64,000 bases of DNA, taken from contig OZ024757.1 of the NCBI GenBank assembly GCA_964016885.1, positions 40,920,001 to 40,984,000 on the forward strand, read 5' to 3'. Under the pieces are notes generated by a model. It was given only the letters and a program-made list of their open reading frames with translations, was not told the DNA's origin and ran no database searches. Source of the stretch: Eledone cirrhosa (lineage: Eukaryota). Both the position numbers and the translations under genes were made by a program. Positions 13,141 through 44,907 of this stretch are shown here, piece by piece; within the stretch, counting starts at the first letter, position 1, and each line of letters begins with the position of its first letter.

Positions 13141-13785
13141 TAAACACACTGAAACACAAAAATAAACACTGAAACCTAAAATGATCTAACTTTAAGATCA
13201 ATTGCAGCGAAAGTGTGTCAGTGACAAGACTAGGTCACAACCAGTGCAACGAAAATACGTAAACCAAGAAAGAAATAGATCATGTCTTTTTAACTTTAAA
13301 TGTCTTTTTAACTTTAGCCAATTTAATAGTATTAGTTTTAACAGACAGTCACAGATCAAGTCACCTGCCAGACTAGTTGAGCTCTACAAACTCTTCTGTG
13401 TTCTAATTACATTAGTTTTATCACACATAATTAGATCAACTCATTTGCCAAACAAATTCAAATCCATTAAAGTGACTCGTCCACAACAATGTGTTTGCTT
13501 TACTTTTAACACATCGTCTCAGATTAACTCACTTGAAAAACACATTCGACTTCGTAAAAAAACTTGAGTCTACTACAATGTAATTGTTATATTATCTTCT
13601 TCTTCTTTTTCTTTTTCTTTTTCTTTTTCTTCATCTTCTTTTTCTTCTTTTTCTTTTTCTTCTTCTTGTCCTCCTCCTTCTTCTTCTTCCCCCTTCCTCC
13701 TCCCTCTCCTTCTTCTCCTTCTTCTAAAGCAGTTATTGTCAAATTTCGATTCCCATCCCCCCAAAAAATAAAACAAACAAATAAA

Positions 13786-13972
13786 AATTGTTTCTACTTT
13801 TAGGCACAAGGCCAGCAATTACCCCAGTGCATTACTGGTACTTTATTTTATCGACCCCGTAAGGATGAAAGTCAAAGTTAACCTCGGCGGGATTAGAACT
13901 CAGAATGGCAAGGGCCGTAACTCTATGCGTCAAAGCATGGCGTCCGAACCCTCTACCGATACTGCCAATCCA
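13786..13972 (-). mobile_element. Young short-form tRNA/Deu-Nin SINE
   Basis: ~190 bp, highly similar to copies at 26157, 28607, 33740, 36121, 48714 and 56729. Confidence 0.9.
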
Positions 13973-14408
13973 AAATAATAATGAAATAACATTAAACGCT
14001 CCACCTCCCTCCTACCAATATGATCTGATAAAATATACCATATACCATAGTTCCTGTACATAATCTGACGTTTCACGCTCCACCAAAATATTGACACAAG
14101 CCCCCAGTAGGTCTGTGAGGCTAATCTTTAGAAATATTATTCTAAATTCTTAGGCATTGTCTCATGAAAGAACCAAAACCGAAAAGAAAACGCCTCGAAC
14201 TGACTCAGAAGTCTGCAAGTTATCACCTGTTTGGAACAATAGCTATTTCCTGATGGTAACTTGACCCAAGAACATTACCTAGGTTTTATACTCTACTCTG
14301 TAGTAATCCCGCTGGCATTTGGTGGTGGTGGTGGTGATGGTCGGATGTGTGATTCTGCCTGCCAGTCTACCCTCATCTCTCTCTCTCTCTCTCTATGTAT
14401 ATATATAT

Positions 14409-14848
14409 TGAAAGTAGGCTTATAAGTATGAATTTTCAGTAGACTTACGTATCTTCTCAGTGGCTTAACGGTAGATTCTAGAGACGGTGGAGATCCTGGT
14501 CTTGGATTCAATCCTGGTCGTCAGGTGCATGTAGTTTTTTTCAGTTTTTATTTTACATCCATAGAAAAAAAAATGAAAAGTTCTAACGTAACCCCTACTC
14601 CCGACGAGGATCGAACTTCAGACTAGTACCACCAGCTTCTACGAATACTTCCACTAGGCCACCGAGACGGTCATGAAAGTGAAAGGAAAATTAATAATTA
14701 TAAACCTACTTTCGAAGTTAAAAAGATGTGGTGATGTTCATGGCTTTCCTAGCACTATTAGTGTCGACTTGTCAATGTTCTGGCTCTCTGGTAACAACCT
14801 TATTATTCCTGTGTGTGTTTAACTGTTGAATTAATTTCATTTGATAAT
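14409..14848. mobile_element. Family F element: two convergent tRNA-like units inside inverted repeats, flanked by (TA)n
   Basis: Unit 1 (+) 14455-14520 has A box TGGCTTAACGG and B box GATTCAATCC. Unit 2 (-) 14599-14667 has TGGCCTAGTGG and AGTTCGATCC. The IR is GAAAGTAGG(C/T)TTATAA / TTATAAACCTACTTTC. Homologues at 43390 and 43890. Confidence 0.75.
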
Positions 14849-16045: not shown

Positions 16046-16234
16046 ATGAAATAATTACTTCAGAAAGATACTTTATTTTTCTTTCATTTAGGTTTTGCTT
16101 TAAACTGTTTTACCAGCAGGAATTTATAATTACAACTTGATCTCGTCTTTAATCCATTCACCCACAGTTTCGCGGTTTACAAGAATTCTTAGAAACACAG
16201 CAATAATTAAAAAAGCATTAAGTTACCTAAATAG

Positions 16235-16830
16235 TGGTTTCTCATTTAGGCAGAAGGTGAACAATTTTATGGAAAGGGAAAGTCGATTAAATCGACCTCA
16301 GTGTATTACTGGTACTTTATTTTATCGACTCCGTAAGGATGAAAGGCAAAGTTAACCTCGGTGGGATTTAAAATCAGAACATAAAAAGCCATAACTCTAT
16401 GCTACAAAACATGGCGTGCGACGTTCTCCCGATTCTGCCAATCCACCATTCCACCACCCTAATATATAAAAATAATTGTCTCTACTTCAGGCACAAGGCC
16501 AGCAATTACCCAGTGCATTACTGGTACTTTATTTTATCGACCCCGTAAGGATGAAAGGCTAAGTCAACCTCGGCGGGATTTGAACTCAGATCGTAAAGGG
16601 ACGTAACTATGCTGGAAAGCATGGCGTCTAATATATAAAAATAATGATTTCTACTATAGGCAAAAAGTCAACAATTTTGTTGGAAGGGTTAAGTCGATTA
16701 AATTGATTCCAGTTCATTACTGGTACTTTATTTTATCAACCCCGTAAGGATGAAACGTAAAGCTAACCTCAGCGAGATTTGAACTCAGAATGTATAACGA
16801 AGGTTCTATATAAAATCCAGCTATCGGAAT
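16235..16830 (-). mobile_element. Three stacked tRNA/Deu-Nin SINE copies
   Basis: Three CTGGTACTTTATTTTATCGAC...AAGGATGAAAGGC cores. Confidence 0.9.
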
Positions 16831-18475: not shown

Positions 18476-19632
18476 CCATGTCTTGAGAGAAATGAGAAGG
18501 TCAAAGTGTTCCAATGACCACAGTCAGTTACATCTATCAATACATCCCATGTCTTGAGATACATGAGGCAGCCAAAGTGTTCCAATGACCACAGTCAGTT
18601 ACATCTATCAATACATCCCATGTCTTGAGATACATGAGGCAGCCAAAGTGTTCCAATGACCACAGTCAGTTACATCTATCAATACATCCCATGTCTTGAG
18701 ACACATGAGGCAGCCAAAGTGTTCCAATGACCACAGTCAGTTACATTTATCAATACATCCCATGTCTTGAGATACATGAGGCAGCCAAAGTGTTCCAATG
18801 ACCACAGTCAGTTACATCTATCAATACATCCCATGTCTTGAGATACATGAGGCAGTCAAAGTGCTCCAATGACCACAGTCAGTTACATCTATCAATACAT
18901 CCCATGTCTTGAGATACATGAGGCAGCCAAAGTGTTCCAATGACCACAGTCAGTTACATCTATCAATACATCCCATGTCTTGAGAGAAATGAGGCAGCCA
19001 AAGTGTTCCAATGACCACAGTCAGTTACATCTATCAATACATCCCATGTCTTGAGACACATGAGGCAGCCAAAGTGTTCCAATGACCACAGTCAGTTACA
19101 TCTATCAATACATCCCATGTCTTGAGACACATGAGGCAGCCAAAGTGTTCCAATGACCACAGTCAGTTACATCTATCAATACATCCCATGTCTTGAGACA
19201 CATGAGACAGCCAAAGTGCTCCAATGACTACAGTTAGTTACATCTATCAATACATCCCATGTCTTGAGATACATGAGGCAGCCAAAGTGCTCCAATGACT
19301 ACAGTCAGTTACATCTATCAATACATCCCATGTCTTGAGACACATGAGGCAGCCAAAGTGTTCCAATGACCACAGTCAGTTACATCTATCAATACATCCC
19401 ATGTCTTGAGATACATGAGGCAGCTAAAGTGTTCAAATGACTACAGTCAGTTACATCTATCAATACATCCCATGTCTTGAGATACATGAGGCAGTCAAAG
19501 TGCTCCAATGACCACAGTCAGTTACATCTATCAATACATCCCACGTACATGAGACGGCCAAAGTGTTCCAATGACCACAGTCAGTTGTCTCTCTCAATAC
19601 AACCCATGTCTTAAGACACAAAAGGCAGCCGA
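18476..19632. repeat. 71-bp minisatellite, ~16 highly similar units
   Basis: CATCCCATGTCTTGAGATACATGAGGCAGCCAAAGTGTTCCAATGACCACAGTCAGTTACATCTATCAATA at 18543, 18614 and onward; no unique spacers. Confidence 0.97.
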
Positions 19633-19635
19633 AGA

Positions 19636-25541: not shown

Positions 25542-26156
25542 CACCCCGACTGCATTCGTTAGCTTGGCTGCAACCAGAGCTTCGATGATGCTGTACTAAA
25601 TTTTGTATATATATACATATATATATATGTATATGTATATATATGTATATATATGTGTGTGTGTGTATGCATGTCTGTGTGAGCATGTGTGTGTGACACG
25701 ACACATGTGTGTGTGTGACACGACACATGTGTCTCTCTAATGAATTCCTATGAAATGGTCAGAAGTGATTATTGTGAAGAGTTTTTAGTTGAGTCCCAGT
25801 TTTAATATATTATATTAACACTGATTTATTTTCTTGCACTCTATTTATCGATTACTTCTCTGCTAAAATCAGTCGACAAAAAAGAAAGATATAATCAATA
25901 CCATTATGGAATTAACTCAGCAGCTTCATAATGCGAGAGAAATCGAAGCTTTTTGATTTATCGGAAGGTTCGATTTCCTGTTTGAACTTATTCAATCACT
26001 TGAGTATTTAATAAAACTCCTATGGCGGGCCGCTGTTTCTTCAACATATGCTCAACTGTAGAGTATTTCAAAGATAGATCACCGTTGCTGTTGTTGTTGT
26101 TGCCATTGCTGTTGTTGTTGTTGTTGTTTTTATTATTATTATTATTATTATTATCG

Positions 26157-26686
26157 CGGTGGATTGGCAGAATCGGTAGAGGGTCGGACACCATGCTTTC
26201 CAGCATAGTTACGTCCCTTTACGATCTGAGTTCAAATCCCGCCGAGGTTGACTTTGCCTTTCATCCTTACGGGGTCGATAAAATAAAGTACCAGTAATTC
26301 ACAGGGTAATTGCTGGCCTTGTGCCTAAAGTAGTAACAATTATTATTATTATTATCGCGGTGGATTGGCAGTATCGGTAGAGAGTCGGACGCCATGCTTT
26401 GCAGCAAAGGGTTACGGCCCTTTATGGTCTGAGTTCAAATCCCGCCGAGGATAACTTTGCCTTTCACCCTTACGGGATCGATAAAATAAAGTACCAGTAA
26501 TACACTGGAGTTGATTTAATCGACTTTCCCCTCCCCCAAATTACTGGCCTTGTGTCAAATGTAGAAACAATTATTATTTTTATTATTAGGGTGGTGCATT
26601 GGATGAATCGGTAGAGCGTCAGAAAACATGGTTTATGGCATGGAGTTATGACACTTTGCGTTCAAATCCCGGTGAGGTTAGCTTTA
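26157..26686 (+). mobile_element. Three tandem tRNA/Deu-Nin SINE copies (short form, long form, head only)
   Basis: GCGGTGGATTGGCAG..TCGGTAGAG heads at 26157, 26357 and ~26588, with (ATT)n linkers. Confidence 0.9.
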
Positions 26687-43341: not shown

Positions 43342-43382
<41 letters not shown>

Positions 43383-43389
43383 GTTTCTT

Positions 43390-43851
43390 AAGTTAATCAA
43401 ATTAAATTAATTCAACAGTTAAACAGGAATAATAAGGTTGTTATCAAAGAGCCAGTAGATTGACAAGTCAACCCTAAATATGACTAACAGCTCTAGGAAA
43501 CTTAGATTGAAAGTAGGTTTATAATTATTAATTTTCAGTATACTTTTGTAGATGTCTCGGTGATCCTGGTCTGAAGTTCGATCCTGTTCGGGAGTAGGTT
43601 TCCCGGTAAACCTTTTCAGTTTGTTTCCTATGAGATGTAAAATAAAAACTGAAAAAGGTTACATGTACCTCTTGACCAGGATTGAACCCAAGACCAGGAT
43701 CGCCACCGTTTCTAGTACTTACCGCTAGGCTACTGAGACAACTACGTAAATAAACTGAAAATTCATACTTATAAACCTACTTTCGAAATTTTCAATATAA
43801 AATGATGTGGTGATGTGGTGTCGTTCATCTCTTTCTTAATGTTATTGCTCC

Positions 43852-43852
<1 letters not shown>
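43390..43852. mobile_element. Family F element (copy F2)
   Basis: Internally deleted unit 2 (+) ~43555-43595 and unit 1 (-) 43671-43738; IR GAAAGTAGGTTTATAA / TTATAAACCTACTTTC; TA flanks. Confidence 0.8.
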
Positions 43853-43882
<30 letters not shown>

Positions 43883-43889
43883 CTGTTAA

Positions 43890-44350
43890 AATAATCAAAT
43901 TAAATTAATTCAACAGTGAAACACATATAGGAATAATATGGTTGTTACCAAAGAGCCAGAAGATTGACAAGTCGACCCCAAATATGACTAATATCAATTT
44001 TCATTGCAAGTTTGTAGATGTCTCGGTGGCCTAGTGGAAGGAATAATAGATGGTGGTGAACCTGGTCTGAAGTTCTCTCCTGGTAGGGTTCCCGGTAAAC
44101 GTTTTCAGTTTTTTTTTTCTATTGGATGTAAAATAAAAACTGAAAAAGTTTACATGTACATCTTGGCCAGGATTGAACCCAAGACCAGGATCTCCAACGT
44201 CTCTAGTACTTACCACTGAGCCACAGAGACAACTACAAAAATCTATTGAGAATTCATACTTATAAACCTACTTTCAAAATGTTCAATACAAAATCATGTG
44301 GTGTCCTTCATGTCGTTCTTAATGTTATTGCTCCTACTTAAGGTCGACTT
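43890..44350. mobile_element. Family F element (copy F3), tandem to F2
   Basis: Unit 2 (+) 44021-44085 has TGGCCTAGTGG. Unit 1 (-) 44161-44229 has TGGCTCAGTGG...GGTTCAATCC. T-runs on both strands lie between the units. Confidence 0.8.
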
Positions 44351-44907
44351 CTAAATAATTTCGGTGTTCCATAAACTACATCCTCGTTTTGTTTATGATT
44401 ATTAATTTTCAACCACTAAACCTCGATTAAATGGACCTGTCGAACATATCACTAGTAGATTTACTAAATACAACTGTCAATAGACAAGGAATAAACATAT
44501 TACTACTAAACCAGACTCTACCATTTACCAATATCCTCCCTATACCGTATATAATACGATTTAACTGAAATAATGAAATAATACAAGGAAATTTATATAG
44601 TGAAAAATGTATTATTTACAAATAATAAAAGCTTTCCATGCTGGTAACTTCAACTTATCCTTTTCAATTTAGTCACAGTTCGATTAATTCGATTACTAAA
44701 CATTTCCATTTAGTCACAGTGTGATCGATTCGATCTCTAAACGTCACCAGGTGGCCTATTCTTTAAAACCCAAACCAAAAAATGACATTGTCTCACACAA
44801 GATTCAAATTTGACGTGGATTTTCTGCAGCGTTCGTTTATCTCAAGTTGGGTAATTGTATTATTTACTGTCGGAATACCGGGAAATTATCTCTGTGTATG
44901 TGTATAT

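What the first reader, a model, noticed from the sequence alone, without database searches (positions are those of the whole stretch)
43390..44350. Family F: TA-embedded element built from two different, convergent tRNA-like Pol III units
Seen: in three copies (14409, 43390, 43890) a unit with TGGCCTAGTGG..AGTTCGATCC faces a unit with TGGCTCAGTGG..GGTTCAATCC. T-runs on both strands lie between them, and inverted GAAAGTAGGTTTATAA repeats lie outside. The two units are clearly diverged from each other but each is conserved across copies, so the pair propagates as one unit. I found no hammerhead, poly(A)/SSR tail or TSD, but the element has the same TA targeting and inverted-arm layout as the ribozyme families. 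Inference: a non-SINE tRNA-bearing mobile element in which Pol III promoters or tRNA-like processing signals may take the place of the ribozyme. It could also act as paired TFIIIC sites.
Basis: partly seen in the sequence, partly recalled or inferred. Interest (0 to 1): 0.75.

Follow-up and report, generated by a model that had tools for sequence, protein, structure and literature searches.

The report
Pol III gene pair riding hAT
These three pieces are broken copies of a 758-base module holding two face-to-face copies of one tRNA-like small gene, which spread to a few thousand places mainly as cargo inside a cut-and-paste (hAT) transposon rather than as a new kind of jumping element, and one of the two genes was likely still read into RNA.

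Summary
The repeat is real, but the reading changes. The two "different" units are one unit duplicated tail-to-tail (~75% identical from -120 to the T-run). The window holds three truncated copies of a 758-bp, TA-flanked module (F; roughly 2,000-4,000 copies). Its main carrier is a non-autonomous hAT transposon: 114 of 140 sampled copies have its pieces within 1.5 kb, against none in 66 control loci, and 20 of 27 complete F-carrying elements have 8-bp target duplications. The window copies have lost the transposon ends. Both arms belong to a wider family of tRNA-like Pol III mini-genes that also sits in tandem arrays elsewhere. Boxes in F copies decay like their flanks, so F is passive cargo. 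Six of 70 right-arm loci are solo copies running from the predicted start to the terminator, which suggests past transcription and retroposition; the left arm gave 0-1 of 70. No ribozyme-replacement role is supported. Earlier scan notes on other DNA of this genome describe a similar family and mention copies inside a DNA transposon.

The parts
43379..43853 (+). Copy A of module F (F3-528), starts at a TA run, ends in a TA run
43509..43524 (+). Left-arm upstream block with TATA-like TTTATAA (about -34 in intact copies)
43554..43622 (+). Left tRNA-like unit of copy A: A box deleted, B box 43576-43584, T-run from 43613
43645..43739 (-). Right tRNA-like unit of copy A: +1 at 43739, A box 43722-43732, B box 43679-43687, then T-run
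43769..43784 (-). Right-arm upstream block with TATA-like motif
43854..43875 (.). (TA)n linker between the tandem copies
43876..44394 (+). Copy B of module F (F2-119 joined to F185-586; left upstream block deleted)
44020..44120 (+). Left unit of copy B: A box 44027-44037, B box mutated 44072-44080, T-run from 44102
44140..44230 (-). Right unit of copy B: +1 at 44230, A box 44213-44223, B box 44170-44178
44260..44275 (-). Right-arm upstream block of copy B
14405..14848 (-). Copy C of module F (F17-472), 82% to consensus, TA runs on both sides
14570..14668 (-). Left unit of copy C: A box 14651-14661, B box 14608-14616; upstream block 14698-14713
14454..14551 (+). Right unit of copy C: A box 14461-14471, altered B box 14506-14514; upstream block 14410-14425

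Best explanation
The window pieces are truncated copies of a 758-bp TA-flanked module holding one tRNA-like gene duplicated tail-to-tail, which was carried around the genome mainly inside a non-autonomous hAT transposon, and whose right-hand gene was likely still transcribed by Pol III in some copies. Shown: module anatomy, arm homology, association with hAT ends, 8-bp TSDs, relatives of the arms outside the module, neutral-looking decay. Inferred steps: (1) a family gene was duplicated by fold-back at its own 3' T-run/A-run hairpin; (2) the TA-flanked segment was caught between or inside copies of a hAT miniature element that often lands in TA runs, making a composite; (3) a hAT transposase with matching TIR start moved it; (4) TA-mediated unequal exchange made tandem copies and deletions removed the ends, as in this window; (5) right-arm RNA (about -6 to the T-run) was occasionally reverse-transcribed by other retroelements.
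For: hAT pieces within 1.5 kb at 114 of 140 loci picked by one arm only versus 0 of 66 control loci, 437 kb. TIR CAGTGGCGGACTGG at both ends; 20 of 27 complete F-carrying elements have TSDs matching at 7 or 8 of 8 bases, three perfect ones being non-microsatellite (L033, L103, L423). The empty miniature element exists without F (L094, L119). 27 of 78 distinct loci share one exact hAT-to-F95 junction with no TA run, and that label clusters on the tree (29 changes vs 53.9 shuffled, 0 of 500). Copies without hAT ends do not cluster (21 vs 22.6, 85 of 500). Autonomous hATs with TIR CAGTGGCGGATTTAA, 8-bp TSD and an 885-aa DUF4371 + hAT-dimer ORF exist. Family relatives share the -60 block, boxes and 3' flank; their 3' flank matches the right arm at 35-36 of 44 and the left at 26-28 of 44 (2 types compared). 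Six of 70 right-arm loci are transcript-sized solos.
Against: 21 of 140 loci show no hAT end within 1.5 kb; of 20 selected loci extended to 10 kb (19 lacking miniature-element pieces at 3 kb), about 11 still show none, and the 64-kb window has none, so a second route of spread is not excluded. Seven of 27 complete elements lack a good TSD. No autonomous element with the exact miniature-element ends was found in 50 transposase loci. The tree is star-like and its bootstrap had not settled. The right/left difference in solos is weak (Fisher p 0.028, or 0.12 if L450 counts). The two sampled sets were not de-duplicated against each other.
Confidence: 0.8

Rival explanations
1. F is itself a TA-targeting retroelement passenger (Penelope-dependent, ribozyme-free), that later was also picked up by a hAT.
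For: Exact ends in TA runs (22 of 78 start at F1-4, 27 of 78 end at F758), head-to-tail tandems, copies lacking hAT ends. Penelope-like elements form tandem/inverted structures and prefer (TA)n (PMC8557442, passages).
Against: Arms differ by ~25% while copies are on average 89% identical to the consensus, so the inversion is not made at insertion; 81% hAT linkage; end-less copies are interleaved on the tree; boxes not conserved among copies.
Confidence: 0.12
2. The arms are dead tRNA-derived sequence that was never transcribed from F; the solo right-arm pieces are deletion products or come from one source gene.
For: Predicted RNAs fold no better than shuffles (z -0.32 and 1.16); no covariation above shuffles (202 of 500); neutral decay.
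Against: Six of 70 right-arm loci end within F421-428 (+2 to -6) versus 0 of 70 at the mirror position of the left arm; solos lack the upstream block, stop at the T-run and carry both alleles of a site that splits F copies.
Confidence: 0.25
3. Each unit is an independent SINE and the pairing is local.
For: Transcript-sized solo copies of the right arm exist.
Against: Pair intact in 128 of 140 loci; ~200 bp of upstream flank travels with each arm; solos have heterogeneous 3' ends and no shared tail.
Confidence: 0.03

Closest known systems
Non-autonomous hAT elements with captured cargo (Tip100-like TIR; subfamily label recalled, not from a call)
   Same: Short TIRs starting CAG, 8-bp TSDs, no ORF, many internal-deletion derivatives, related autonomous transposases in the genome.
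   Different: Cargo is a convergent pair of Pol III-type small genes with upstream promoter DNA; composite often has two left ends; tandem cargo copies.
TRIMp3 elements Cassandra, Helenus, Ajax (PMC10886601, abstract and outline seen)
   Same: Non-SINE mobile elements carrying tRNA- or 5S-like sequence with Pol III promoter boxes.
   Different: Those are LTR retrotransposons with direct LTRs, PBS/PPT and 4-5-bp TSDs and use the promoter; here the carrier is a DNA transposon and the arms are inverted passengers.
Non-LTR retrozymes and Penelope-like passengers (10.64898/2026.07.22.740005, abstract to methods read; PMC8557442, passages)
   Same: Tandem copies; tandem/inverted layout and (TA)n preference of Penelope-like elements.
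   Different: No hammerhead found; inversion is old and fixed; movement signature is hAT.
Lineage-specific Pol III gene families snaR and 4.5SH/4.5SI (PMC3045588, PMC3440375; search listing only)
   Same: About 100-nt Pol III-type units of narrow distribution, amplified as DNA.
   Different: Those are shown to be expressed; here expression is only inferred from retrocopies.
U6-type processed pseudogenes and chimeras (PMC4476161, abstract)
   Same: Solo copies start at the RNA 5' end and some are fused to retroelement pieces (L231, L239, L262, L263).
   Different: TSDs and tails were not systematically tested here.

Membership tests
hAT non-autonomous element (carrier) | Short terminal inverted repeats | tested here: met
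   14-bp TIR at both ends
hAT non-autonomous element (carrier) | 8-bp target site duplication | tested here: met
   20 of 27 F-carrying complete elements at 7-8 of 8
hAT non-autonomous element (carrier) | Autonomous partner sharing the ends | tested here: inconclusive
   hATs sharing the first 10 TIR bases found (L467-L469), none sharing subterminal sequence among 50 loci
hAT non-autonomous element (the three window copies) | TIRs/TSD around these copies | tested here: not met
   No carrier end in the window; they are end-less fragments
tRNA gene | Cloverleaf and Rfam/ARAGORN call | tested here: not met
   anticodon stem 51% paired, outer T-stem 6%
tRNA-derived SINE | A and B boxes at tRNA spacing | tested here: met
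tRNA-derived SINE | Copies start at +1 and end in a shared tail | tested here: not met
   128 of 140 loci are pairs with upstream flank; solos have no common tail
Non-LTR retrozyme | Type I hammerhead in each unit | tested here: not met
   No Rfam ribozyme hit in window or in L008 arms, (minimal hammerheads can be missed)
TRIMp3 (Helenus) | Direct LTRs, PBS/PPT, 4-5-bp TSD | tested here: not met
   Arms inverted, TSD 8 bp
Pol III small RNA gene | TATA near -30, A box, B box, T-run terminator | tested here: met
Pol III small RNA gene | RNA detected or Pol III occupancy | not testable with these tools
   No RNA run listed
tRNA-Asn descent | Similarity to host tRNA-Asn outside the promoter boxes | tested here: inconclusive
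   First 11 bases of right arm identical to host tRNA-Asn genes, but middle region no better than shuffles (452 of 500); search was anchored on that start

The most novel reading that the evidence does not exclude
A cut-and-paste transposon scattered thousands of complete, promoter-bearing Pol III gene pairs from an undescribed lineage-specific small-RNA family; the right-hand gene stayed active in the germline from many dispersed copies, so the element exported Pol III transcription units and paired TFIIIC sites, and possibly dsRNA, genome-wide and seeded proto-SINE retrocopies.
Probability: 0.35. Interest if true: 0.65.

Novelty: new variant of a known kind. Interest (0 to 1): 0.45.

Why it matters
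It shows a DNA-level route by which intact Pol III promoters, including upstream TATA DNA that retroposition loses, reach thousands of sites, and it catches an early step of SINE birth: a dispersed gene leaving transcript-sized retrocopies fused to other repeats. It also warns that TA-embedded inverted layouts in this genome need not be Penelope products. The mobility mechanism itself is ordinary.

Tried and rejected
ARAGORN and Rfam found no tRNA or known family; relaxed ARAGORN calls the left arm a tRNA with an 8-nt loop but also gives chance calls elsewhere. No RNA holder was listed; laying contigs of two runs only confirmed multi-copy presence. A two-hairpin fold fits 18 unit types better than a cloverleaf (87% vs 64% cells paired) but neither clearly beats shuffles (202 and 19 of 500); RNAalifold gave a third, weak structure. 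Selection on boxes among F copies rejected: mismatch rates A box 0.08-0.09, B box 0.05-0.06, TATA block 0.03-0.04, far flank 0.05-0.06. Exact autonomous partner not found in 30 loci at 1.5 kb and 20 at 10 kb; 150 of 591 candidates were scored and the rest not examined. The Penelope-like reading of the ORF in L263 rests on recalled motifs; Pfam gave no significant hit. Literature searches listed no description of this element or of a hAT carrying a Pol III gene pair; Repbase/Dfam and supplements were not seen, so it may already be catalogued there.

Full report
Observation. The three copies are present and homologous. No tRNA or Rfam family is called. The window lies in a 3.0-Gb animal genome; its other repeats look cephalopod-like to me (recalled).

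The module. A genome search gave 2,861 candidates, 40 scored; nearly all of these also matched on the opposite strand at ~70%. The full module F is 758 bp with sharp ends in TA runs. Its halves align over ~300 bp: 75-78% identity from -120 through the T-run and 57% further out. Each arm is about 200 bp of upstream DNA with a TATA-like motif at -34, a 72-nt tRNA-like head with A and B boxes, ~25 nt and a T-run. Copies average 89% identity to the consensus (120 long segments). Exact-match counts (241, 262) divided by exact-match rates (8 and 5 of 61) give roughly 2,000-4,000 copies.

The carrier. Flanks revealed a TIR, CAGTGGCGGACTGG, at both ends of ~0.8-2.7-kb elements. I sampled 70 of 262 right-arm and 70 of 241 left-arm matches (the first 30 listed plus 40 further listed places, skipping some already held): 114 of 140 have carrier pieces within 1.5 kb, 5 have a second, Charlie-like hAT, 21 have neither; 128 have both B-box regions. 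Control loci have none (0 of 66). Of 27 complete F-carrying elements, 20 have TSDs at 7-8 of 8 bases, including unique-sequence ones. The empty miniature element exists. Common layouts are left end-F-(TA)n-second left end-right end, and right end-(TA)n-F-left end, as expected if F was caught between carrier copies (inference). One junction, carrier base 224 to F95 without a TA run, is shared by 27 of 78 distinct loci and clusters on a tree of 163 copies, whereas end-less copies do not (bootstrap unsettled). Autonomous hATs sharing ten TIR bases exist; an exact partner was not found.

The window copies have no carrier ends in 64 kb. About 11 of 20 extended loci also have none. I read these as breakdown products, but an additional TA-mediated or retro route is not excluded.

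The cargo. Relatives of the arms occur outside F in tandem arrays (~625-bp period on C25) and in larger repeats near contig ends; 167 matches in overlapping loci fell into 16 types, 14 with the upstream block and 2 solos without it. They share the block, boxes, T-run and a 3' flank ending in an A-run stem. That flank matches the right arm better than the left, which suggests the pair arose by fold-back at this hairpin (inference). tRNA-Asn descent is possible but rests on the first 11 bases. A 5' hairpin fits better than a cloverleaf, without significant covariation. Among F copies the boxes mutate at flank rates, so the cargo is not under visible selection.

Trace of transcription. Six of 70 right-arm loci (L062, L079, L385, L386, L400, L406) are solos spanning about -6/+2 to the T-run region, without the upstream block; L231 and L239 from another sample and family solos L262, L263 look the same. 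Some end in (TA)n, some are fused to other repeats. The left arm gave 0, or 1 if L450 (start -22) counts (p 0.028 or 0.12). The solos carry both alleles of a site that splits F copies 55/45, so more than one template is implied. This resembles U6-type processed copies (PMC4476161, abstract). It is indirect; no RNA data were available.

Comparison and verdict. It moves like a non-autonomous hAT and passes the TIR and TSD tests; it is not a tRNA, SINE, retrozyme or TRIMp3. What is new is the cargo: a convergent pair from an apparently undescribed Pol III-type mini-gene family. Earlier scan notes point to a similar family and, in one case, to copies in a DNA transposon; I could not check that they concern the same sequences. 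Novelty: new variant of a known kind. Interest 0.45.

Noticed in passing
L192-L194, L053, L207: A Charlie-like hAT with a transposase-like ORF inserted at the TCTAGA site of F (F594-601, 8-bp duplication) and recurs with a circularly permuted F between a short and a long copy: a likely second composite.
   Followed up: partly
L261 (G000:C1:441185500-441192500): Tandem array with ~1,684-bp period containing the right arm of F and the carrier's right end: a satellite born from the composite.
   Followed up: partly
L321-L345 (G000:C4 from 117.36 Mb): Long tandem array of tRNA-Asn(GTT) genes at ~1,259-bp spacing; 262 pattern matches genome-wide.
   Followed up: no
L306-L307, L308-L309 (C25), L304-L305, L312-L315: Tandem arrays and ~10-kb repeats, several near contig ends, carrying 2-4 types of the mini-gene; a second unit type shares the upstream block and A box but has a different body.
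   Followed up: partly
L263:3269-4090 (-): Mini-gene copy starting at about -3 joined to the 3' part of an ORF with Penelope-type endonuclease motifs (recalled; no Pfam hit): possible template-switch chimera.
   Followed up: partly
F466-481 and F146-163 in many loci; window 14405: Breakpoints of F copies cluster at the outer edges of the best-matched inverted block, suggesting hairpin-mediated breakage.
   Followed up: no
L467-L469; L456-L464: hAT families with open 880-910-aa ORFs (TIRs CAGTGGCGGATTTAA and CAGTGGCGTAACTAG), likely recently active.
   Followed up: partly
window 18476-19634: 71-bp tandem repeat of about 16 units, ~94% identical.
   Followed up: no
window 13780-13996, 16230-16790, 26138-26685 and others: Abundant SINE-like family, often as inverted pairs; resembles Nin-domain SINEs (recalled).
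   Followed up: no
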